This document shows positions 18,541 to 36,645 of a stretch of 37,936 bases of DNA, piece by piece. A program made the position numbers and the translations under genes. The DNA lies in IMG/VR virus record IMGVR_UViG_3300049173_000140, positions 1 to 37,936 of that record, one strand, 5' to 3'. Within the stretch, counting starts at the first letter, position 1. The number at the start of each line of letters is the position of its first letter. The DNA comes from a virus. Its lineage: Duplodnaviria; Caudoviricetes. The notes under the pieces were generated by a model. That model was not told where the DNA came from. It ran no database searches and was given only the letters and a program-made list of their open reading frames with translations.

Positions 18541-20165
18541 GCGGTGGTTTCCTCGGTCTGGCCGTTGCCGCCGCGCTTGTCGGATGCGTCGTCTTCATCC
18601 GTGCGGTTCGCCTGCCCGCTCGCGGCCATCGCAACGGCAATGGGCTGCGCGGTGTTCAGGCCGCGCTCGGCGGCCATGCGCATCTCGATGGCGCGCTGGT
18701 CCATGACTTCCTCGAAGTCGTCGCCCTGCTCGGCGCATTCCTTCTCCAGCGTCGAAATGCCGGTTTCGATACGGAGCGCCGCGGCCTGCGCTTCCTTGAC
18801 TGGATCGACCCAGCCCCGGCCGCCGAAGATGAAGCGCGCCCGCACGTAGGCGTAGCGGTTCTCGTAGAAGCCCGGCGCTTCGATCTCGCCGGCGTTGATC
18901 GCCTCTTCGAGCCACAGCTCGTAGATGGCGCGCAGCCAGTAGTCCGACAGCCAGCGGCGACGGCCATGGAAGTAGCGCCAGGCTTCGAGCAGCGCGGCGC
19001 GCGCGCTGCTGTAGTTCGTCTTGCTGAAGTCCTTCAGCAGCAGCTCATACGGCAGGTTCATGCCGGCCGCGATGTGGCGCAGCGAGGCGAGCATGAAGGC
19101 CTCGAAGGCCTGATTGGGGCGCCCGGGCGTGAAGCTCGACAGGCGCGCACCGGCAGGCAGCGGAATGACCGCGGCGCCCTTGAGCTGGCGGATGTTGCGG
19201 GTCTGCGCGACCGAAGCGTTCCAGGCATCGCGCGGGTTCTCGCCAAACAGTTCGGCGGCAGAGGCCGGGTCCAGATCGGATTCGAGGAATGCGGCGACCA
19301 GCGAATTGGCGAGGCTGGCCTGCAGCTCGTTGGCAGCGTACTTGCCAGCCATGTGGAACTCGCGCATGACGGCCGTGACCACGGGCTTGCCGCGCGACTG
19401 TCCGGTGCGCTCCTTGTCATGCAGATGGATGACGCGGCGCCGGCCCCACGGCGTGAAGGCGGGGATGCGGTCCCACTCCATGAGTTGCGCGTCGCGCGTC
19501 ATGCCGTAGAAGCCGAACGCGAAGGCATCGCCCGGGTGCCGCTTGAGGACGTGGTACGCGACCGGCGCGCCCCACTTGTCGAACTCGATGCCCTTGCGGA
19601 TGTCCTCGCGGTGCTCCATGCCGATGGGGGTCGCGAGCCGGTCGGACTCCACCATCATCAGTCGCGTGTTCCAGCGCGTGCCGGGCCGCGGCAGCCACAG
19701 CGGCAAGCCGAGGGCGTCGCCGTTGAGCATCGCGCCACCCAGCGCCTGAAGGGTCAGGCCGAGCAGGTTCTGCGTGCGCGCCGCATCGCACTCGGTGGTC
19801 TCGGCCCACGAGCGGAACTTGGCTTCGGTGATGTTGCCCCACTCCCGGGCCTTCTCGCGGGTCCAGCCGAGCAGCCGGTAGTCGGGCGCGGCACTCAGGC
19901 GCAGCACGGCGCCGACAATGTTGTCGCGCAGCGTCTGCATGCCGCCAGCCATCAGGCCGTTGTTGCGGCCGAGGTCGCGGGAGCGCGCGGTCAGCGTGTC
20001 GAGGTCGGGCAGCAGATCCGCATCGGCGCTGCCGCCGACCGGATTCCAGTCGCGCATCGCCAGGTCGCTGCCCGAGGCGGCATCGTGGGCGGCCATTGCG
20101 GCGCCAGGGCGCGCCGAGGCGCTCGCACTTGCAGCCGGATGGAATCGACGTGCGCGGCGTGCCAT
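18537..20165 (-). CDS. Portal protein (lambda gpB family), about 542 aa
   Basis: RSRDLGRNNG, GQSRGKP, DFSKTNYSSARAALLE, GRGWVDPVKEAQA. Start could instead be the GTG at 20198. Confidence 0.93.
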   Translation of the reverse strand: MARRARRFHPAASASASARPGAAMAAHDAASGSDLAMRDWNPVGGSADADLLPDLDTLTARSRDLGRNNGLMAGGMQTLRDNIVGAVLRLSAAPDYRLLGWTREKAREWGNITEAKFRSWAETTECDAARTQNLLGLTLQALGGAMLNGDALGLPLWLPRPGTRWNTRLMMVESDRLATPIGMEHREDIRKGIEFDKWGAPVAYHVLKRHPGDAFAFGFYGMTRDAQLMEWDRIPAFTPWGRRRVIHLHDKERTGQSRGKPVVTAVMREFHMAGKYAANELQASLANSLVAAFLESDLDPASAAELFGENPRDAWNASVAQTRNIRQLKGAAVIPLPAGARLSSFTPGRPNQAFEAFMLASLRHIAAGMNLPYELLLKDFSKTNYSSARAALLEAWRYFHGRRRWLSDYWLRAIYELWLEEAINAGEIEAPGFYENRYAYVRARFIFGGRGWVDPVKEAQAAALRIETGISTLEKECAEQGDDFEEVMDQRAIEMRMAAERGLNTAQPIAVAMAASGQANRTDEDDASDKRGGNGQTEETTA

Positions 20166-20166
20166 C

Positions 20167-20394
20167 TCAGACGATGTAGATGGGGCCACGCGAGCCACCG
20201 CCGGAGCGGCGGTCGAGCTCTTCGCTCACGGCAGCGATTTCCTTGCGGATCTCGGCGACGTTTTGCTGGTACTGGACGGAACGCCCGTTGTGGGCGGCGG
20301 AGGTGGGAGCGGTCAGCCGATCCTGCAGCGACGCCACGAGGCGCGTGCGGGTGGCTTGAAGTTCAGCAACTGAGAGGTGGCGGTAAATGCCCAT
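20167..20394 (-). CDS. Head-tail adaptor, gpW-like, 75 aa
   Basis: Helix-hairpin (NGRSVQY)-helix pattern ending RGPIYIV, just upstream of the portal. Confidence 0.8.
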   Translation of the reverse strand: MGIYRHLSVAELQATRTRLVASLQDRLTAPTSAAHNGRSVQYQQNVAEIRKEIAAVSEELDRRSGGGSRGPIYIV

Positions 20395-20620
20395 GCATGC
20401 GATGACAACAGTTCATCGCGGACATTTCCGCTGGACAAATTCACAAAATCACGTCCACCCAGAGCCGCCCACCTCCATGCGATCACTCGCCATGCACGGA
20501 ACTCAGCAATCGGAATGACCATCGAAGCTATTTGCCGCGCTCTTTCCGGCCTCCCCTGAACGTGGTGGGGACGCCCTTCGCCGTTTGGTCTAATGCAGGT
20601 GAACGGAATATTGGGATCCC

Positions 20621-21505
20621 ATGGCAAACACCCGTCTTTCCAAGGCCTTGTGCAAAGTGGTTGGCGAAGTCATCCAGACGACCGGCGGACACCCCACTCT
20701 AGACGCGCTATTCTTGTCCTCGGGGGCGCCTGGAGAACCGCCCCCCCTGGCCCATCATTCGAAATGGAAGGAATGGCTGTTCCGTGCCGGTCAAGATGAA
20801 AACACGGACAGCCTACAAGTGCTTGGGAATGTGCTTGAAGAGTACATGGACGCAGCGCCTGCAGCGGGATCCGAGGCACATGCCACATGGGTGGAGAATC
20901 GAGCGCGTATCGAGGCTGCTCTTGTCAACGATGGGCTTCGCTACTACCGGCTCGGCAGAGTACTACCTCAAGCGCAGTTCTCCGGGATCGACGATGGAAA
21001 TTCCGGTTCGCCACGGCCGGTTCCATCGAGGCCGAGCGACGTTGACGAGGTGCTCCAGGTTATCGTGAAGGGCCTAAGGCGCGCGATGCATCCACTCACG
21101 TATCGTCGAAAGGGGGCGCAAGAGCTACGGTTCTCAAACGAGTACGACGTGCAAGATCTGCTTCACGCACTGCTAAGGCCTTGGATCCTTGACGTTCGCC
21201 CAGAAGAGTACACGCCGAGCTATGCAGGTAAGAGCACTCGCATGGACTTCCTCCTTCCCGCGCATGAGTTGGTCATCGAGACAAAATATGTTCGCGATCG
21301 AATGCACGCGAAAGCTCTTGGTGAAGAACTCATCGTCGACATCGCCCACTACGCCCGACATCCGGAGTGCAAGAAGCTGTGGTGCGTTGTGTACGACCCA
21401 GAGCATTTCATAACGAACGCAGAAGGCTTACGCGCAGATCTTGAAGGAACGCGTGTCACGAACGGCCAGAGCATCATGGTGCGTCTATTCGTGCTAAGTT
21501 TGTGA
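20621..21505 (+). CDS. PD-(D/E)xK nuclease (REase_DpnII-MboI-like C-terminus) with AbiJ-N-like helical N-terminus; candidate anti-phage protein, 294 aa
   Basis: NEYDVQDLLHALL, EEYTPSYAG, RMDFLL, VIETK, EELIVDIAHY, VYDP. N-terminus has LDALF..SGAP...SK..EWL and IEAALVNDGLRY. Opposite strand to the late genes, lower GC. Confidence 0.75.
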   Translation: MANTRLSKALCKVVGEVIQTTGGHPTLDALFLSSGAPGEPPPLAHHSKWKEWLFRAGQDENTDSLQVLGNVLEEYMDAAPAAGSEAHATWVENRARIEAALVNDGLRYYRLGRVLPQAQFSGIDDGNSGSPRPVPSRPSDVDEVLQVIVKGLRRAMHPLTYRRKGAQELRFSNEYDVQDLLHALLRPWILDVRPEEYTPSYAGKSTRMDFLLPAHELVIETKYVRDRMHAKALGEELIVDIAHYARHPECKKLWCVVYDPEHFITNAEGLRADLEGTRVTNGQSIMVRLFVLSL

Positions 21506-21512
21506 GGAACAT

Positions 21513-21797
21513 ATGTTCAACATTCTCAAGCAGATACCCCAGCCCAATGTCTACCAGATGTGGTTCGCAACTCAACCGCGGACGCTATGGATCACACGTA
21601 CAACTTGGACCAACCTATGTGCTCGCGTGATCTCCGTCGGCGAAGCCAAAGGGCCTGCACCCTACTACGGCAACCCTAAAGTCATCGCAGATATCTACAA
21701 CGTGGCCGGTCAATGCACACAGCGTGGCGCAGAGATCAGCGTTCCTGGCACTTACAAGACTTGGCGGCAGATCTCGGAACCCCATTGGGCCAAGTAG
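21513..21797 (+). CDS. Hypothetical protein, 94 aa, aromatic/beta-rich
   Basis: GAGGA RBS, 7 bp after the nuclease stop; non-shadow composition (NVYQMW, PYYGNP, PGTYKTW). Confidence 0.75.
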   Translation: MFNILKQIPQPNVYQMWFATQPRTLWITRTTWTNLCARVISVGEAKGPAPYYGNPKVIADIYNVAGQCTQRGAEISVPGTYKTWRQISEPHWAK

Positions 21798-21921
21798 CCC
21801 AAGCGATGGCAAGCCTCGTAAAGCAACCTGTGTTCGAAACATCGCGAAGGCCGACTCGACTGATCCGTCTCTGGCAATTCGTGAAGATTAGATGCACGGC
21901 TGCCTGCCCTTTACGGCAAGT

Positions 21922-23157
21922 TCAACTCTCAAGTTGCAGGCAAGCGGAATCTAGAACAAAGTGCAGACGCAGGCGCGTCAGAATATCGGGTGTCATTCCG
22001 TCGATGTCGTCAAACGATTTTGCCGCGCTCATCCGTCGAAAGAACGCATGCAGCTGCGTCGCAGTTCGTGGACTCACGCCCAAGACTTCCTGAAATGCCT
22101 GCCAAGAGCAGACACAGGGATCAATCTTTTCGATTTGACTCGGCACTCCTAACAGATGTGCAAGATTGCGGAGGCTCGTCACTGAAAGCGCCAGGCCCGT
22201 CGGATCCGCCAGATTCGAAAGGCGACTCAGTCGATCCTTAATGGTCTCGACTTCCCTGGTAAGCTTACTTAGCGCTTTCTCAAGCCGCTCCGCTTGAATC
22301 TGCAAGTCCGTTTGCTCCTGCAAGGTGCCATTGAGGCTGTTCAAATCGATCTCGAAGCGATCCGTGATGCGCTTCTGCGTGCCATGATGAAAGTAGGACG
22401 CGTCAACTCGAAACTCGCGCACGTGCCGAGACGCGCCCGCTAGAACGGTTGGCCCCGTGCCATAGAGAAAGCTAAGCTTCTTTTTCGGAAGCAAGCTTCG
22501 GATCCCTTGAACGAATGCACGCGGTTCGCCATGCTCCCAGTACAAGGGCGGCTCGATCGCAAAGTGGATATCGGAAGCTGCAGCGTCGCCGACGTTCTCT
22601 ATGACGACCTCCAAGAGCATTCCTCTGACTACGTCGACGCGAACCGAAACCAGTGCGGCCACAAGCACTCGACGGTTGCGAACGTCGTTGATTTCATAGT
22701 CCTCCATGGGAGACGACTTGAAATTGTGGCGCTTGAAGTAGCGCTTTGTGATTCCGTCCTGATGTGGGCCGCGTTCGCTGCGCGGTACAGACACAACGTA
22801 AACCGAGCGTTCGACGTTCAGCTGTATCTGGGAGATCCGGAGGCCCTCAAGCCGAGGCGCCACATTGGACTGAATGATGTCTTCGAGTCGTTCTTTGGTC
22901 CACTCTTTATGGTCGACCCCTCCATCCATCCTCGATGGCTTGTGATCTTCTTCGGCGATGCCATAGATGATGACGCCGCCGTCGGAGTTGGCGAACGCCG
23001 AAACGTCCTTCGAAATCTCACTGCGCCCCTTGTCCGCCATGAGTGCGTCACTTCGCTTGAATTCGAGGTGAATGCTCTCGGTCAGGCGCCGCTCGATGAT
23101 CGCCTGAAGCTCTTCAAGAGTCTGCGGGTGGGCGTAGGGAAGCAAGAGGTTCGACAT
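21922..23157 (-). CDS. Schlafen/AlbA_2-domain protein with C-terminal Ig-like, coiled-coil and HhH-like regions, 411 aa
   Basis: TESIHLEFK, ISKDVSAFANSDGGVIIYGIAE, GPHQ, RYFKR (AlbA_2). Start MSNLLLP with GGTGGA upstream. Confidence 0.85.
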   Translation of the reverse strand: MSNLLLPYAHPQTLEELQAIIERRLTESIHLEFKRSDALMADKGRSEISKDVSAFANSDGGVIIYGIAEEDHKPSRMDGGVDHKEWTKERLEDIIQSNVAPRLEGLRISQIQLNVERSVYVVSVPRSERGPHQDGITKRYFKRHNFKSSPMEDYEINDVRNRRVLVAALVSVRVDVVRGMLLEVVIENVGDAAASDIHFAIEPPLYWEHGEPRAFVQGIRSLLPKKKLSFLYGTGPTVLAGASRHVREFRVDASYFHHGTQKRITDRFEIDLNSLNGTLQEQTDLQIQAERLEKALSKLTREVETIKDRLSRLSNLADPTGLALSVTSLRNLAHLLGVPSQIEKIDPCVCSWQAFQEVLGVSPRTATQLHAFFRRMSAAKSFDDIDGMTPDILTRLRLHFVLDSACLQLES

Positions 23158-23446
23158 AGGTCCACCGAGAAGTAAAACATCGTAGTTCACTACTAGGCCC
23201 GAACTTCCGCTTTCGGTCAACGGTAAGTCGACCCGAAATCCATCGATTTCGGATGTTTCAAGAGACGAGCAGAGAGCGCGCCTTCGGCGATAGGAGCGAC
23301 CAGCTCGAATTGACCTTGGACCCATCGTCGCTGAGCGATCTCCGAACTGACCTGAGTGCGAGGCGCTCAGCGTTAGGATCGGGCGTAGCGAGTCTCGACG
23401 CCAACCTCCCGCATCACGACGCACCTAACTGAATCCAAAGCTTGGC

Positions 23447-23743
23447 TTACCGCCCACTCGCAAGAATCCTGCGCAAATGTCTCGGGGTCATCTCGAACTC
23501 GCGCGCCAGCTCGAAAAGATTGCTTCCATTGAACCGGCGGACGATTTCCTGATGGACTCTCTGGCGATCACGCGCGCTGCGCTTTGGTAAGTAGACATGT
23601 GCACCGCCCAGGCGCAGCAAGATCCGGTCAACCAGCGAGGCTGCCGCCTCATTGGGTGTTGCAATGCCGAAGCATCGTGCCATCGCGCGCGCTTCCTCCT
23701 CGATGATGGCAAGTGGTTCGTCGTTGGGAATTGAGGCCGTCAT
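23447..23743 (-). CDS. Mor/C-family transcription activator, 98 aa
   Basis: LGGAHVYLPK...EIVRRFNGSNLFELAREFEMTPRHLRRIL matches the Mu Mor/C pattern. Confidence 0.88.
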   Translation of the reverse strand: MTASIPNDEPLAIIEEEARAMARCFGIATPNEAAASLVDRILLRLGGAHVYLPKRSARDRQRVHQEIVRRFNGSNLFELAREFEMTPRHLRRILASGR

Positions 23744-23744
23744 A

Positions 23745-25802
23745 TCAGTTCAAGGCAATGGGAGAGAAGATGTCCACATCTGCTGCGGTGGACGCCGTAG
23801 GCAGGGGGGATGGAGTGATCGGATGCGATGACTTCGTGTCTGGCAGAGGGATGGTCACCCTGACGCTGGTAGGCGCACTGGCGTTGGAAAAGAGATCCCG
23901 AGGCGGCTGCACCGCGGCTTCGAGTTCGCCCCACCGCTTGTCCGAATGGTTGTGCAGTCCGAGTCCGAAGGCCGCATGCAACGCATAGTTGCGGTTATCG
24001 AGCACCTCATTGCGCGGCCGGCGCTTCACCCAGCGATAGGCCTCTTTGCCGTTCACCTTGGCAAGAATGCGCTGCTCGGACGTGAGCTGCTCGTACCACT
24101 CACGCGGCAGCTCTTGGCTGAAATGCACGAACCCAGGCCCGGCCTTCTCGATGGCGAGCTGGCCGAGCAGCAGATCCTTCGCGGTATCGACACCGACATT
24201 CCACAGCTTGATGCCGTTCGGGATCTTCTTGCCGTTGAACCGCACCTCCTGCGGACTGCTCGGGCCGAGGACATGGATGTTCTCTTCGCCACGCCCCTTG
24301 ACTGCACGCAGCTTCGGCAAGTGATGTTGGTTCTTTCGAACCCAGTTGTAGACAGCCTGCGTCTGGTCGCTGGAGTCGATGGAGATGGCGCTCAGGCCCA
24401 TGCTCGCGCCGTGCCAGGCCTGCTTGTAGCGCCGGTTCAGGTACTCGGTCACCGGTAGCCAATCGTCTTCCGAGGCGGGATTGCCGTGGATGACGTGGTG
24501 GTCAACGATCCACGATTCGAGTCCGCGGCCCCAAGCCCACACGTCGATTTCCCATCGGTCGCGCTGCACGTCCACGCCGGCCGTGAGCACAAGGCCACCG
24601 ACGGGCACCGTGCGCAGCGCATATGGCTCGGCGCGCGCCTGCAGCGCATGCTCGTCGGTGCGCTCGCCGGATACCTCCCAGGTCTCACCAAGCGTCTCAT
24701 TGACGAAGAGCTGCATGGGCCCGGTGTCGCCGCTGGCGAGCGGGCCGAGTGCTTCCTCGAATTCCTTGACGATGCTTTCCCAGGTGCGCTGCGGGCTGTA
24801 GGCCGCCCAGATATGCAGGCCCAGGGACTTCGGAGGCCGAGTCGGCATGCCGGCGCTGTCGCGCCAGATGCGATCCGGGCCGTAGCGCTTGCCGGTCTTG
24901 CCACACACCCACGAGCCGAACAGCGGCAGATCGCTCGGCAGGTAGTCGTTCTGGCGGATGGATTTGTGGCAATGGGGGCAGACATGACGAACGCTCTCGG
25001 GCTGGCCCCGCTCCCACTTGAAGCCGTAGAGCTTGTCCTTGCCGCCCCACATGAGCGGATGCTCGACGCCGCAATGCGGGCAGTCGATGTGAAAGCGCAC
25101 ATAGCCTTCGGCGTTGTCGACCGCGCGCTCGACATGGCAAAGGCCCTTGACGCCCGGTGTCGAGCCGCCGACGAACTTCGGATAGGGCGCGCCTTCGAGC
25201 CGGCCCTTCGCCAGGCCGCCCGGGTCGCCCGACTTCTCGATCAACTGGTCGAACGCCGACCATTCGTCGAGGATCGCGATGGCCACCGTAATGCGACGGT
25301 AGGCGCGCTTGGCCTTGCCGCCGAGCAGATGGAGAACGCTCTCGCGGAATTTCTTGAGCTTGATGGTGTCCTCGACACCCCTGCCCTGCTTGCGCGCTGC
25401 GCGCACTGCCGGCACGCCGTCTACCGGGTCGAGGATCGGGTCGATCTCACTCTTGACGTAGCTGTCGCGGTCGTCGTCAGTGGGCTGCCACAGCGCCTGC
25501 TTGCGGCGGCGGTGCGCGATGTTGTAGGCGACGAAGGCGCTGATCATCTTCGTGTAGCCCACGCGCTTGGACTTCATCACATCGAGTTCCTCGATGCGGT
25601 CGTCGCTCATGCAGTCGAGGATGCCGACCTGAAAGGACCAAGCGACCCAGCCGCCCTTTTGGTGCGAGCTTTCTCCGGCGAGCTTGAAGTGCTCGGCCGC
25701 CCAGTCGCTCAGGCGCTGGAAGGCCTCCGCGCGAAGACCGCTCAGGCCGATGCGCACAGCGCCGATGGCGGCGTCGAGTGTTTCACGCGAAACGGGCTTC
25801 AA
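23745..25802 (-). CDS. terL: Terminase large subunit (lambda GpA family), 685 aa
   Basis: MKSKRVGYTKM Walker A variant, AILDE Walker B, GSTP, CPHC twice, LTAGVDVQ, RNEVLD. Confidence 0.95.
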   Translation of the reverse strand: MKPVSRETLDAAIGAVRIGLSGLRAEAFQRLSDWAAEHFKLAGESSHQKGGWVAWSFQVGILDCMSDDRIEELDVMKSKRVGYTKMISAFVAYNIAHRRRKQALWQPTDDDRDSYVKSEIDPILDPVDGVPAVRAARKQGRGVEDTIKLKKFRESVLHLLGGKAKRAYRRITVAIAILDEWSAFDQLIEKSGDPGGLAKGRLEGAPYPKFVGGSTPGVKGLCHVERAVDNAEGYVRFHIDCPHCGVEHPLMWGGKDKLYGFKWERGQPESVRHVCPHCHKSIRQNDYLPSDLPLFGSWVCGKTGKRYGPDRIWRDSAGMPTRPPKSLGLHIWAAYSPQRTWESIVKEFEEALGPLASGDTGPMQLFVNETLGETWEVSGERTDEHALQARAEPYALRTVPVGGLVLTAGVDVQRDRWEIDVWAWGRGLESWIVDHHVIHGNPASEDDWLPVTEYLNRRYKQAWHGASMGLSAISIDSSDQTQAVYNWVRKNQHHLPKLRAVKGRGEENIHVLGPSSPQEVRFNGKKIPNGIKLWNVGVDTAKDLLLGQLAIEKAGPGFVHFSQELPREWYEQLTSEQRILAKVNGKEAYRWVKRRPRNEVLDNRNYALHAAFGLGLHNHSDKRWGELEAAVQPPRDLFSNASAPTSVRVTIPLPDTKSSHPITPSPLPTASTAADVDIFSPIALN

Positions 25803-33836: not shown

Positions 33837-34028
33837 ATGAACGAAAAACTTCTCGTCCCCGCGGTTGAAGCCGCGAAGATGCTGTCCATAGGCCGCTCCA
33901 CTTTCTGGAACAAAGTGAAGCTGAAGCAACTCCCGCAACCGGTGAAATTCGGGGGCGTCACCCGTTGGCGCGTATCGGATCTTCGCGCCATTGTTGATGC
34001 CCGAAGCGATCCGGAATCGGCGATCTAG
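33837..34028 (+). CDS. AlpA-family DNA-binding protein, probable excisionase, 63 aa
   Basis: EAAKMLSIGRSTFW...LPQPVKFGGVTRWRVSDL. Confidence 0.85.
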   Translation: MNEKLLVPAVEAAKMLSIGRSTFWNKVKLKQLPQPVKFGGVTRWRVSDLRAIVDARSDPESAI

Positions 34029-34099
34029 ATCGAGCCAGACTTATACGTCACGCTGAGGTTTTCTCGTCGGTGCTCAATGATTGAATAAATGGATGACGA

Positions 34100-34462
34100 T
34101 TAAATTTCGTCATCCATTTCCTTGAGTAGGTCCTCAACGATATCTCCAATCCCTCTAGCGGTTCTTCTCGCATCACGATAAAGATTTTGCATGACTTTGA
34201 ATGATCCGGGCAAAACATCCTTTAGTTCATCATCATTCACCGAGTCAATCCAGTTATTTGTATCTTTCAGATAAATTCCAAAATAGTAGTCAGGATCAGT
34301 AAATGGATCGTCTTCATCCTCTCGATGAACAGAGATCGACACAAAGTACTTTCCCAAGCTTGCCCTAAAAGAATTACTAGCGTCCTCCTGCCAGTGAACA
34401 CCGCCAGCCCTCGATTTTTCAGACAGCCGATTAATTAGCAACGCAATTCGTTCAAGTTCCAT
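34100..34462 (-). CDS. Hypothetical acidic protein (low-GC moron), 120 aa
   Basis: Clean ORF in AT-rich DNA; start overlaps the upstream gene end by 11 nt. Confidence 0.8.
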   Translation of the reverse strand: MELERIALLINRLSEKSRAGGVHWQEDASNSFRASLGKYFVSISVHREDEDDPFTDPDYYFGIYLKDTNNWIDSVNDDELKDVLPGSFKVMQNLYRDARRTARGIGDIVEDLLKEMDDEI

Positions 34463-35054
34463 GCTTCACCTTAGTCAATCTTAGTGCATCCACATTGTCG
34501 GCAAGCTTATTTGTGCGCTGAGCCAGCTTTCTCCTTACGTTGTGTCGCTTTTCCTCATCTTTGATGTGCTCCAATGCCGGCGGTTCTTCGCGAAGAGTAG
34601 TTTCAATTTCGCTCATCAATTCCACGAGAGCTGTATTATTTACTTCTATTGCCTTGACTTCGACGGCAATGGCAACCGCATGGTCCTTGGACATTTCGAG
34701 ATAACCCCAATTGTCTGTACGGTAAACATCCCTAATTGCCCTTAGTCTTCCCGAAAGCTCAGAAAGACGCGTTGCTGTCTCCAGTTGATCGCGATTTTTT
34801 ATTGCGGCCGCCGCGGCTTTTTGGGCTGCTGCCTTCGCCGCCTTAGCTTGTCTGTAAGTCAGCCACGTTAACAAAAGTCCTATAAGACCGGCGATGTCGC
34901 CGATGTGATAGTTAGTAAGCATTGGGCCTACTACTCCAAGCCCATCGATTGGACTTCCAACTTTTACCGCTACCTTAGAGTCTGGGGCAATATTTATTGG
35001 GGGCGCCGCACCTGAGTTGGAATTTGCATTCGCCAAAGTCACCTCGGGATTCAT
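34452..35054 (-). CDS. Hypothetical single-TM helical protein (low-GC moron), about 200 aa; start uncertain
   Basis: TM IGDIAGLIGLLLTWLTY, then AKAAKAAAQKAAAAA and a helical bundle. Alternative starts at 35093 and 34923. Confidence 0.75.
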   Translation of the reverse strand: MNPEVTLANANSNSGAAPPINIAPDSKVAVKVGSPIDGLGVVGPMLTNYHIGDIAGLIGLLLTWLTYRQAKAAKAAAQKAAAAAIKNRDQLETATRLSELSGRLRAIRDVYRTDNWGYLEMSKDHAVAIAVEVKAIEVNNTALVELMSEIETTLREEPPALEHIKDEEKRHNVRRKLAQRTNKLADNVDALRLTKVKHGT

Positions 35055-35243
35055 TGTGGAATTGATATCCGACTGCTGCGAGCTGCCAGACACAAAGTGT
35101 TGCAGCGTTCAATGTAACCCAGTATGAGAACGCATGGCAGCACAGCCCGGGCATGTTCAAACCCTGGCCGCGAACTACGTTACGTGTTCACAAGAGCAGC
35201 CACCTCGGACGCGCACAACAGGTGGCGGGGTACGGAGCCGTGC

Positions 35244-36398
35244 TTAGTCAGCGCTCGTGGACACCGATCGCTGAGCCGCATCCAGCCAGTCGGACCACCA
35301 CTGCATCAGCTCGCAGCGCTGGGAGAGGTATTCCGCGCGGTTGTATGCCGCACGCACCGCGTCGGTTTCCTTGTGCGCAAGTTGACGCTCGATCACGTCA
35401 TGAGGAAAGCCAGAGCGCTCGTTAAGTACCGTCGATGCAAGAGCCCGGAAACCGTGCGCCGTCATGCGGCCACGGTAGCCCAGACGATACAAAGCAAAGA
35501 GAAACGTGTTCTCCGACAGCGGGTGTCCCGGACGGATCGGCGAATCGAGTACGAGCGCCCCGTCACCGCTCATCTTGTGCAGGGTCGCTAGGATCGCCCG
35601 AGCTTGCCGCGACAGTGGCACCACATGCGGAATGCGCATCTTCATGCGCGCTTGGGGCACGACCCACACCTCCCCCTTCTCCTTCAATTCGCTCCACTGC
35701 ATGCCGCGCAGCTCACCAACGCGTACGAACGTGTGCGCCATCAGTTGGAGGCCGAGTCGCGTCACCGAATCCTCGTAGCCATCAATGGCGCGCATCAGCT
35801 CACCTGCCTCTTCCGGTGGAATGCTCGCCATCGGCTTCTTGGTCTTGCGAGCGATGAGCACACGAGTCAACCCGGCTGCACCGTGCTGCTGCAGCAGACC
35901 CGTGTCCTGCGCGAAATCGAAGACGGCCGAGATGCGGCTCGCGACGCGATGCCCGGTTTCAATCTTTCCGCCGGCCTGTGCAGCCCGCACCACCGCAACC
36001 AACTCCGACCGCCGAATGGTATCGATAGGCCGCGAGCCGAGCTGCGGGAATGCGTACCGCTCTAGCGTGTTCTGCACCTGAATTTGATGCTTGCCGTTGG
36101 AGAGGGTCGGCAGCTTCGCCTTGAGCCAGTCGCGAGCCACGGTCTCAAAGGTCGGTGCCGTTGCTGCGGCCGGCGAGCCCTCACGAGCCGCTGCGTGCTC
36201 TTTCCGCGCTTCAGCTAGGCTCACTCCAGGGTACAGACCATAGGTCTTGGTCTTTTGCTTTCCGCCAGCGGTGTAGTTTGCTCGCCAACTCTTTGCGCCG
36301 GTGGGCGAAACGAACAGATAGAGGCCATGCGCATCAGCGAGCTTGTAGGCCTTTTCGCGCGGTTTGGCGGCGTCAACAGCTTTAACAGTAAGGGTCAT
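35244..36398 (-). CDS. int: Tyrosine integrase, P4-like with arm-binding domain, 384 aa
   Basis: KAYKLADAHGLYLFVSPTGAKSWR; catalytic R (FVRVGEL), K (RMKMR), HGFR, LAH, Y (AAYNR). Confidence 0.96.
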   Translation of the reverse strand: MTLTVKAVDAAKPREKAYKLADAHGLYLFVSPTGAKSWRANYTAGGKQKTKTYGLYPGVSLAEARKEHAAAREGSPAAATAPTFETVARDWLKAKLPTLSNGKHQIQVQNTLERYAFPQLGSRPIDTIRRSELVAVVRAAQAGGKIETGHRVASRISAVFDFAQDTGLLQQHGAAGLTRVLIARKTKKPMASIPPEEAGELMRAIDGYEDSVTRLGLQLMAHTFVRVGELRGMQWSELKEKGEVWVVPQARMKMRIPHVVPLSRQARAILATLHKMSGDGALVLDSPIRPGHPLSENTFLFALYRLGYRGRMTAHGFRALASTVLNERSGFPHDVIERQLAHKETDAVRAAYNRAEYLSQRCELMQWWSDWLDAAQRSVSTSAD

Positions 36399-36500
36399 GG
36401 TATCGGCTAGAAAATACCATGGTTGATGCCACGTTTGAAGCTTGGCTAGGGACAGTCTGCGCCAGCCTCCGTTAGACCAGAAAGGATGTCTCTCCCAATG

Positions 36501-36536
36501 AAAAAGTCCCGTCGCATGAACCGCGCGGGACTTCTT
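36501..36536 (-). terminator. Probable terminator downstream of the tRNA
   Basis: AAGTCCCG...CGGGACTT inverted repeat followed by a T run on the minus strand. Confidence 0.6.
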
Positions 36537-36557
36537 AAAACTTGCTCAGATCGATTC

Positions 36558-36645
36558 TGGCGGAGAGTGTGAGATTCGAACTCACGGACGATTTCTCGTC
36601 GGCAGTTTTCAAGACTGCTGGTTTAAACCACTCACCCAACTCTCC
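36558..36645 (-). tRNA. tRNA-Ser (anticodon TGA), 88 nt, integration site
   Basis: GGAGAGTTGGGTGAGTGGTTTAAACCAGCAGTCTTGAAAACTGCCGACGAGAAATCGTCCGTGAGTTCGAATCTCACACTCTCCGCCA: acceptor stem, anticodon arm GCAGT-CTTGAAA-ACTGC, long variable arm, TTCGAAT loop, encoded CCA. Confidence 0.97.

What the first reader, a model, noticed from the sequence alone, without database searches (positions are those of the whole stretch)
21922..23157. Schlafen nuclease fused to Ig-like, coiled-coil and ComEA-like helix-hairpin-helix regions
Seen: the AlbA_2 domain keeps the E-x4-E-x-K motif (ESIHLEFK). It is followed by a beta-sandwich pattern (LEVVIENVGDAAASDI...FRVDASY...RFEIDL), a heptad stretch (QAERLEKALSKLTREVETIKDRL) and a C-terminus (KIDPCVCSWQAFQEVLGVSPRTATQL...SFDDIDGMTPDILTRLR) resembling the double HhH of ComEA-type DNA-binding domains. 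Known: Schlafen domains cleave tRNA, and from memory bacterial Schlafen-sensor fusions mediate phage defence. Inference: a four-part effector that may read both a protein and a nucleic-acid cue. I do not recognise this architecture.
Basis: partly seen in the sequence, partly recalled or inferred. Interest (0 to 1): 0.75.

Follow-up and report, generated by a model that had tools for sequence, protein, structure and literature searches.

The report
Prophage Schlafen with portable sensor arm
A prophage carries, in a slot where related phages keep anti-phage systems, a Schlafen-family gene of an already catalogued but untested layout that likely protects the host by cutting tRNA when its predicted sensor arm meets a phage protein; the end of that arm has lost the usual DNA-binding residues, and the same arm also occurs behind a predicted membrane helix in other proteins.

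Summary
The four-part anatomy is real: Schlafen domain with E27-E32-K34, Ig-like sandwich, heptad helix and ComEA-type double HhH. It is not unrecorded. Supplementary Table 2 of PMC13056530 lists five 'pSlfn.Immunoglobulin-related.HHH' proteins among 232 pSlfn5 members, and two of the five came up as full-length homologues. None of the five was among those tested.

The nucleic-acid-cue idea fails its motif test. The second hairpin glycine survives in 4 of 120 homologues versus 15 of 16 ComEA-like controls, and the DNA-facing positions are acidic, as in protein-binding NusA AR2.

The gene lies in a swappable prophage slot where 15 of 26 related phages examined carry defence-gene hits (Dsr2, Lamassu, Thoeris).

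New here: the Ig-coil-HhH arm is portable. It also occurs without Schlafen behind a predicted membrane helix and on different Schlafen lineages.

Best reading: a single-gene anti-phage tRNase switched on by a phage protein; the trigger is unknown. Earlier scan notes report similar terminase-portal slots on other DNA, none this protein.

The parts
21922..23157 (-). Whole gene, 411 aa: Schlafen + Ig-like + coiled coil + PTGLxLS helix + acidic double HhH (pSlfn5, Ig.HHH layout)
   Evidence: GC 0.555 and GC3 0.65 against GC3 0.83-0.88 in terminase and portal
22672..23127 (-). Schlafen/AlbA_2 nuclease domain (about residues 11-162)
   Evidence: PF04326 27-151, E 4e-16; structure matches 3lmm Z 12.2, SLFN11 7fex Z 11.8
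23056..23079 (-). Catalytic motif E27-x4-E32-x-K34
   Evidence: intact in 119 of 120 homologues; equivalent residues are required in RorSlfn5 and CbCash
22333..22665 (-). Ig-like beta-sandwich (165-275), predicted sensor
   Evidence: AlphaFold2; VIA-align Z 6.0-6.7 to Ig-type sandwiches; column entropy 2.12 against 1.40 in the nuclease
22210..22308 (-). Heptad helix (284-316), predicted coiled coil
22150..22209 (-). Conserved PTGLxLS motif and helix (317-336); low-confidence loop at 319-321 in the monomer model
   Evidence: G321 and S325 invariant; entropy 1.77; pLDDT under 50 at 319-321
21955..22131 (-). ComEA-type double HhH (343-401) with hairpins G-h-D/S and G-h-T-x-E/D, lacking the DNA-binding signature
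20457..23448 (.). Exchangeable cargo slot of the prophage, GC 0.56
   Evidence: flanks 90-95% identical to L086, L087 and L116 up to 20456 and from 23449-23592 on; cargo different in each
20621..21505 (+). Second cargo gene, helical N-terminus + DpnII/MboI-type restriction endonuclease domain; probably an independent cargo
   Evidence: PF18742 E 1e-45; PADLOC Aga_Helical-REase E 9e-31; no homologue in the 85 Schlafen loci L001-L085
21513..21797 (+). 94-aa ORF of no known family within the cargo
   Evidence: no Pfam, PHROG or PADLOC hit; not in the 80 phage loci or 85 Schlafen loci
23447..23743 (-). Mor-family gene, upstream border of the slot, directly after the terminase large subunit (23745-25802)
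   Evidence: PF08765 E 1e-12; GpA terminase domains
20167..20394 (-). Small conserved gene before the portal, downstream border of the slot (head-tail-joining gpW-like; label by position and recall, no family hit obtained)
   Evidence: translation; conserved before the portal in close relatives; portal PF05136

Best explanation
This is a prophage-borne, single-gene Schlafen protein that likely defends the lysogen by cutting tRNA after its predicted Ig/coiled-coil/HhH arm binds a protein of an infecting phage. Shown: the domain order, an intact catalytic motif, the place in a swappable defence slot, the loss of the DNA-binding signature in the HhH, and the reuse of the same arm on other N-terminal parts. 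Inferred from RorSlfn5 and CbCash: (1) the resting protein is an oligomer with the nuclease shut, likely held by the coil and the PTGLxLS element; (2) a phage protein binds the arm, most likely the Ig domain, with the acidic HhH as a second protein-contact or assembly surface rather than a DNA clamp; (3) binding brings the Schlafen domains into register; (4) metal-dependent cuts in tRNA loops slow translation and lower phage yield. The trigger is unknown. It should be absent from, or altered in, the resident prophage, because the gene lies in the same direction as the late genes.
For: Catalytic motif intact in 119 of 120. Same layout as catalogued pSlfn5 Ig.HHH proteins: Desulfonema magnum 35% over residues 11-397, E 2e-74, and Agrobacterium T29 24.7% over 12-376, E 7e-14, both at the coordinates the paper lists. 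All 5 of 5 catalogued members have a defence gene within 10 kb. In RorSlfn5 the Ig-like region sets specificity, binds a phage tail chaperone and switches on Mn-dependent tRNA cleavage (PMC13056530). Slot: 0 of 80 related phage loci carry this gene; 15 of 26 slots examined hold PADLOC hits at E<=1e-10, among them Dsr2, Lamassu, Thoeris, PifA, PD-Lambda-5 and AbiL. HhH: second glycine in either hairpin 4 of 120 versus 15 of 16 ComEA-like and 11 of 11 Tex controls; D/E at 362 in 94 of 120 and at 391 in 104 of 120; mean net charge -3.0 versus +1.5. The hairpins align with those of NusA AR2, a protein-binding double HhH. The arm, acidic hairpins included, is kept behind a predicted membrane helix with no nuclease. 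Patchy spread: the tail was found in 0 of the 400 other genomes of one carrier's family, and one copy is broken by an IS.
Against: No activity was tested for any Ig.HHH member. Five of seven pSlfn systems tried in E. coli, and two of three pSlfn5 proteins, gave no protection against the phage panel. pSlfn5 is a fold-level grouping; the RorSlfn5 sequence could not be obtained here, so homology of its sensor to this one is untested. Only 11 of 35 genomic loci had a PADLOC hit among the nearest ORFs, two of them generic domains, with no background control. The query's own HhH is less acidic than the family's (net 0; S362, R364). The NusA likeness is weak (probability 39%). Ig and HhH Z-scores are only 5-7.
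Confidence: 0.62

Rival explanations
1. Dual-cue sensor: the Ig domain reads a phage protein, the HhH binds DNA or RNA, and both are needed.
For: ComEA-type fold and remote sequence likeness. The query keeps R364 at the K62-equivalent position and has net charge 0. A four-repeat HHH_3 protein with G-M-D hairpins exists, although its DNA binding is unknown. SLFN11 and SAMD9 are activated by nucleic acids (PMC13056530 discussion).
Against: G-h-G kept in 4 of 120; K/R at the K63-equivalent in 0 of 120 and at the second-hairpin lysine in 3 of 120; acidic residues there instead. ComEA G60E and K62/63A lose function.
Confidence: 0.12
2. The acidic HhH is an internal brake that sits in the tRNA-binding groove, as NusA AR1-AR2 blocks RNA binding by NusA; the trigger pulls it off.
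For: Acidic hairpins like NusA AR2; NusA auto-inhibition described in PMC6614801 (passages).
Against: The same acidic tail is conserved in 12 of 12 aligned membrane-helix proteins that have no nuclease to inhibit. Genes ending right after the coil exist (L022, L042) and would be constitutively toxic under this model, unless they are dead.
Confidence: 0.1
3. The HhH tail is dispensable scaffold; only Schlafen and Ig matter, as in plain pSlfn5.
For: Tail-less and tail-swapped relatives: L022 nests among full forms (99/97 support), L041 carries a different C-terminal domain. Tail entropy is 2.25.
Against: 119 of 119 best homologues cover the tail (these were chosen by whole-length score, so the count is biased). 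The tail travels with the Ig to the membrane-helix family and keeps near-invariant residues (F355, E357, L359, A366, F400).
Confidence: 0.1
4. Not anti-phage defence: a stress or prophage-maintenance toxin, or an inactive relic.
For: 30.4% of pSlfn genes have no defence neighbour; the slot also holds an Rhs/immunity pair and a HipA-like gene in relatives.
Against: Intact catalytic motif; no conserved partner or antitoxin gene in 35 loci; defence-rich slot.
Confidence: 0.06

Closest known systems
pSlfn5, variation 'pSlfn.Immunoglobulin-related.HHH' (Perez Taboada et al. 2026, PMC13056530, Supplementary Tables 2 and 3; five proteins, 389-417 aa)
   Same: Same domain order and size; two of the five are full-length homologues of this protein.
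   Different: Only listed there: no mention of the coil (0 hits for 'coiled' or 'helical' in the main text), no test, no statement on the HhH. The other three proteins could not be checked.
RorSlfn5 (Raoultella ornithinolytica, WP_069476174.1), the tested pSlfn5
   Same: N-terminal Schlafen with Ex4(E/D)xK followed by an Ig-like region; single gene; similar size (382 aa).
   Different: Annotated Schlafen + Ig only (its relative PagSlfn5 as Ig + Ig), without HhH. Its trigger is the tail assembly chaperone of T5-like phages; this protein's trigger is unknown. Sensor homology was not testable.
CbCash (PMC13462974)
   Same: Same nuclease and E-D/E-K triad; activation by re-ordering an oligomer is the model for steps 1 and 3.
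   Different: Its sensor is Csx15, which binds cA4, and it goes with type III CRISPR; here the sensor arm is Ig-coil-HhH, in a prophage.
ComEA / Tex double HhH (Pfam HHH_3)
   Same: Fold and spacing of residues 343-401.
   Different: No G-h-G hairpins, no lysine pair, acidic.
NusA AR2 (acidic double HhH that binds proteins; PMC6614801)
   Same: Hairpins G-V-D and G-L-T-x-E align with the family's G-h-D and G-h-T-x-E; score above 100 of 100 shuffles.
   Different: Weak overall match (39%), six-residue insertion, not among the 50 structural rows listed; a parallel, not an ancestor.

Membership tests
pSlfn5 (Schlafen-Ig) | Schlafen domain PF04326 of more than 100 residues | tested here: met
   residues 27-151, model 1-117 of 118, E 4e-16
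pSlfn5 (Schlafen-Ig) | Catalytic Ex4(E/D)xK motif | tested here: met
   E27, E32, K34; 119 of 120 homologues
pSlfn5 (Schlafen-Ig) | Fused immunoglobulin-like domain (fold-level) | tested here: met
   AlphaFold2 all-beta domain; VIA Z 6.0-6.7 to Ig-type sandwiches
pSlfn5, Ig.HHH variation | Full-length homology to the catalogued members | tested here: met
RorSlfn5 orthologous group | Sensor homologous to the RorSlfn5 C-terminal region | not testable with these tools
   no tool returned the RorSlfn5 sequence
pSlfn5 (Schlafen-Ig) | Activation by a phage protein (T5-like tail assembly chaperone in RorSlfn5) | not testable with these tools
   needs escaper phages or co-expression
pSlfn5 (Schlafen-Ig) | Mn-dependent tRNA cleavage; oligomer in solution | not testable with these tools
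   needs biochemistry (cleavage assay, SEC-MALS)
ComEA-type DNA-binding HhH | Double HhH fold | tested here: met
   top three of 48,161 chains are ComEA/Tex HhH, Z 5.5-6.2, rmsd 2.7-2.9
ComEA-type DNA-binding HhH | Pfam HHH_3 match at the curated cut-off | tested here: not met
   no hit for the query; 2 of 120 members match at E<=0.5, best 0.027
ComEA-type DNA-binding HhH | G-h-G hairpin motif | tested here: not met
   4 of 120 versus 15 of 16 ComEA-like controls; query has G-V-S and G-M-T
ComEA-type DNA-binding HhH | Basic residues after the hairpins (V. cholerae K62/K63) | tested here: not met
   mean 0.22 K/R at four positions versus 1.38 in controls; the query keeps only R364
ComEA-type DNA-binding HhH | Sequence-independent DNA binding | not testable with these tools
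   needs EMSA
NusA AR-like protein-binding HhH | Acidic hairpins and sequence likeness to AR2 | tested here: inconclusive
   hairpins align, probability 39%, 7.9 bits against a shuffle maximum of 0.9; several ComEA/Tex controls score as well or higher
Cash (CRISPR-associated Schlafen) | Fused Csx15 Rossmann-like cA4 sensor | tested here: not met
   the region after the nuclease is predicted all-beta, then helical; the CbCash match covers only the nuclease

The most novel reading that the evidence does not exclude
The Ig-coil-PTGLxLS-acidic HhH arm is an undescribed portable phage sensor that bacteria plug into either a tRNA nuclease or a membrane effector. Its HhH has been turned from a DNA clamp into acidic bait that mimics a NusA-AR-like host surface, or DNA, and catches a basic phage regulator such as an antiterminator, while the Ig domain reads a structural protein: a two-protein AND gate.
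Probability: 0.2. Interest if true: 0.72.

Novelty: new member of a known kind. Interest (0 to 1): 0.4.

Why it matters
Schlafen phage defence and this very layout are already on record, so the gene itself is a new member. Its value is as a handle on open questions. The authors of PMC13056530 state that it is unknown whether the nuclease or the sensor drives oligomerisation, and how the trigger activates the nuclease. This subfamily has separable parts (Ig, coil, motif, HhH), natural tail-less and tail-swapped forms, and a nuclease-free membrane version, which allow clean swap experiments. The membrane-helix proteins (16 clusters) are a candidate defence family; a five-term literature search found nothing on them. 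The Mor-to-portal slot is a ready source of further candidate systems, several without any family hit.

Tried and rejected
Homodimer prediction (two copies with alignment A1): no answer (ipSAE 0.02 in both runs, controls not folded); not used as evidence either way.

Foldseek of the tail against the PDB gave no match at E<=0.001; profile search of PDB sequences with the tail gave only designed helical proteins. NusA AR domains are not among the 50 rows of the tail's structure search, which does not exclude them. Foldseek against viral models gave only partial, low-TM matches. Protein atlas: hits under 0.9, leads only.

Longer fusions (721-2055 aa) of the arm: none at E<=0.001, weak evidence. 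No match in GenBank phages; the viral-contig scan gave 4 loci, none matching beyond residue 243. No sigma-70-like promoter, and terminators at chance level, in 20100-23900. Sequencing runs: no RNA holder listed. No conserved partner gene in 35 loci; the one cluster spanning 8 loci was not identified but includes a generic AAA-HTH hit. The neighbouring REase gene is rejected as a partner.

RorSlfn5 could not be obtained for comparison: supplement searches gave accessions only, and the genome-family search did not reach it. The roughly 258-aa 'Schlafen-less' hits start at the family's internal MEDYEI methionine and were treated as fragments. Two of 30 control loci were extracted in the wrong frame and dropped, and one long-frame locus was left unclassed. 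An early note that L041 keeps the PTG motif was wrong.

Literature: 'Schlafen' + 'helix-hairpin-helix' gave 4 papers, none on this protein by title or abstract (listing only); 'Slfn5' + 'tail assembly chaperone' gave only the one study and its preprint; two searches for the Mor-portal slot gave 0 and 1 unrelated paper.

Full report
What is there. The finding is one ORF, 21922-23157 on the minus strand, 411 aa. Pfam calls only the Schlafen domain (27-151, E 4e-16). A homologue search gave 676 hits among 8000 scored candidates; the best 120, including the query, were aligned as A1. AlphaFold2 on A1 (mean pLDDT 89, pTM 0.60) shows a Schlafen fold, an all-beta domain (170-271), one long helix (284-316), a short helix (326-336) and a helical C-terminal domain. 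The structure search placed residues 2-164 with Schlafens (Z up to 12.2), 163-282 with Ig-type sandwiches (Z 6.0-6.7, rmsd 3-4.3) and 342-403 with ComEA (Z 5.9). A separate model of residues 310-404 (38 sequences, pLDDT 76.5) ranked ComEA, Tex HhH and ComEA first, then the PolC and Pol III HhH regions (Z 6.2, 5.8, 5.5, 4.8, 4.4); Foldseek's best was also ComEA but at E 1.1. The catalytic motif is intact in 119 of 120 sequences and the heptad has 9 of 9 hydrophobic a/d positions.

It is catalogued. Of Perez Taboada et al. 2026 (PMC13056530) I read parts 1-4 of 10 of the main text (abstract, results, discussion, first methods), section 16 and passages, and parts of supplementary files 21, 22 and 24. 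They group 232 of 5,930 prokaryotic Schlafens as pSlfn5 (Ig-like). They show that RorSlfn5 is a hexameric, Mn-dependent tRNase activated when its C-terminal region binds the T5 tail assembly chaperone. Their Supplementary Table 2 lists five pSlfn5 proteins as 'pSlfn.Immunoglobulin-related.HHH', each with at least one defence neighbour. Two surfaced independently here as full-length homologues at the listed coordinates: Desulfonema magnum (35%, residues 11-397) and an Agrobacterium plasmid (24.7%, 12-376). The tested proteins (Ror, Pag, Sfo) are annotated without HhH. The paper's figures are not held, one supplementary cell was cut, and Supplementary Data 3 of the Cash paper (PMC13462974; passages and section 11 read) was not opened; these may say more about this layout. 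Preprint supplements are closed.

Does the HhH read nucleic acid? In V. cholerae ComEA, function depends on the GIG hairpin and K62/K63: G60E is non-transformable and K62/63A does not bind DNA (PMC3879209, passages). As controls I took 30 HHH_3 loci from 20 genomes, dropped 2 read in the wrong frame and left 1 unclassed, leaving 16 short-frame ComEA-like and 11 Tex-like domains (classes assigned by frame length). The second glycine is present in either hairpin in 4 of 120 family members against 15 of 16 and 11 of 11. Position 362 is D/E in 94 of 120 and position 391 in 104 of 120, where controls often carry lysine (K/R in 8 of 16 and 11 of 11 at the latter). Mean net charge is -3.0 against +1.5 (Mann-Whitney p 3e-7; sequences are related, so this is descriptive). 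The query itself is milder (net 0; S362, R364, D391). A recalled likeness to NusA's acidic repeats was tested: AR2 aligns hairpin to hairpin, weakly (39%, E 3e-4; above 100 of 100 shuffles, but no better than several ComEA controls). AR2 is a double HhH that binds SuhB and the alpha-CTD (PMC6614801, passages). I infer a ComEA-derived fold reused for protein contact.

The arm is portable. A profile of the tail over 1.84 billion representatives gave 223 hits, 150 listed: 56 full-length Schlafen fusions, 84 fragments of the same family and 10 others; the 73 unlisted were not seen. Of the 10, one is a four-repeat HHH_3 protein, seven look like mis-started or frameshifted fragments, and two (P0180, P0201) have a hydrophobic N-terminal segment in place of Schlafen. 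P0180 has a family of its own (17 hits, 16 without a Schlafen annotation), matching the query over residues 165-404 at 99.95%. All 12 aligned members have a hydrophobic 19-mer starting at residues 7-26 (Kyte-Doolittle 1.9-2.7; the query's first Ig strand scores 1.92, so the membrane helix is predicted only) and keep the acidic hairpin (12 of 12). The one locus obtained (L196) lies directly after a tRNA-Thr gene with no Schlafen upstream, and is frameshifted in the tail. A tree of 54 Schlafen domains puts three arm-bearing proteins (L014, L026, L034) inside the clade of short Schlafen forms with other C-terminal regions (97/97), and a tail-less form (L022) inside an arm-bearing clade (99/97); well-supported branches force at least five changes (midpoint root for drawing only; fragments, frameshifted genes and part of the short forms were left out). 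L041 has another C-terminal domain after the coil, and L013 is split by a transposase.

Context. The window is a lambdoid prophage: integrase near a tRNA-Ser, repressor, CII, terminase, portal, head and tail genes. The gene lies in a GC-poor 3-kb block (20457-23448) between a Mor-family gene and the small gene before the portal; three close phages are 90-95% identical on both sides but differ inside. Of 80 loci fetched by the terminase (best 80 of 155), none has this gene or the neighbouring REase, and 36 have a Mor hit. I examined 26 of the 36, leaving out four that repeated another locus's slot size, five whose contig ends before the portal and one with a weak Mor hit and a short gap. Fifteen of 26 hold PADLOC hits at E<=1e-10 (Dsr2 twice, Lamassu, Thoeris, PifA, PD-Lambda-5 twice, AbiL, restriction-modification and others), two more have weaker hits, and others carry PIN, NACHT, Mrr or DUF4062 domains. 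No background control was run. In cellular genomes the family is scattered over many phyla without a fixed partner; 11 of 35 loci had a PADLOC hit among 129 nearest ORFs, and the tail was found in 0 of 400 other genomes of one carrier's family. A close homologue's cluster (P0002, 82% identical) includes a Variovorax protein, which fits a Comamonadaceae-type host.

Mechanism. Shown: anatomy, motif, slot, loss of the DNA-binding signature, portability. Inferred from RorSlfn5 and CbCash: an inactive oligomer, binding of a phage protein to the arm, alignment of the nuclease domains, tRNA cleavage and reduced phage yield (0.62). Rivals: protein plus nucleic-acid cue (0.12), HhH as internal brake (0.10), dispensable tail (0.10), no defence role (0.06). 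Against the main reading, most pSlfn systems tried in E. coli gave no protection, and homology to the RorSlfn5 sensor could not be tested.

Verdict. A new member of a known kind: pSlfn5, Ig.HHH layout, catalogued and untested. Interest 0.40. The acidic HhH and the membrane-helix version of the arm were not found in the searches made and are the part worth following.

Noticed in passing
P0180 family (P0264-P0278), P0201; locus L196:619-1152: Nuclease-free proteins of about 289 aa: predicted membrane helix + the same Ig-coil-PTGLxLS-HhH arm; the one locus seen follows a tRNA-Thr gene. Candidate membrane-effector defence family.
   Followed up: partly
window 20457-23448; L086-L165 between Mor and portal: Exchangeable slot of 0.8-6.4 kb holding Dsr2, Lamassu, Thoeris, PifA, PD-Lambda-5, AbiL and others; several cargo ORFs have no Pfam or PADLOC hit (L087:12053-14788, 912 aa; L113:2199-3536, 446 aa; L165:10496-13095, two ORFs; L157:6731-8086).
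   Followed up: partly
window 20621-21505 (+): Helical N-terminus fused to a DpnII/MboI-type endonuclease domain, with no methyltransferase next to it; likely a second stand-alone defence gene.
   Followed up: partly
window 21513-21797 (+): 94-aa ORF without any family hit or homologue in the loci fetched.
   Followed up: partly
L041:7989-9416: Schlafen-Ig-coil with a PDC-M14B-like C-terminal domain (E 2e-6) in place of the motif and HhH.
   Followed up: partly
L013:7989-10057: Homologue split by a transposase inserted in the coil region.
   Followed up: partly
L092:10585-15606: Rhs-repeat protein with an Imm21 immunity gene in the same prophage slot.
   Followed up: no
L129:11905-13323: TIR domain fused to a DnaB-like helicase domain in the slot.
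   Followed up: no
P0250: Protein with a hydrophobic N-terminus and four ComEA-type HHH_3 repeats whose hairpins read G-M-D or G-I-D rather than G-I-G; DNA binding unknown.
   Followed up: partly
window 34100-35093 (-): Second low-GC patch (0.46 at 34001-35000) beside the integrase, with two ORFs (213 and 120 aa) lacking Pfam, PHROG and PADLOC hits; possibly another cargo slot.
   Followed up: partly
window 35244-36645: Integrase next to a tRNA-Ser(TGA) gene at 36558-36645, followed by a HemN-like host gene: likely the attachment site.
   Followed up: partly
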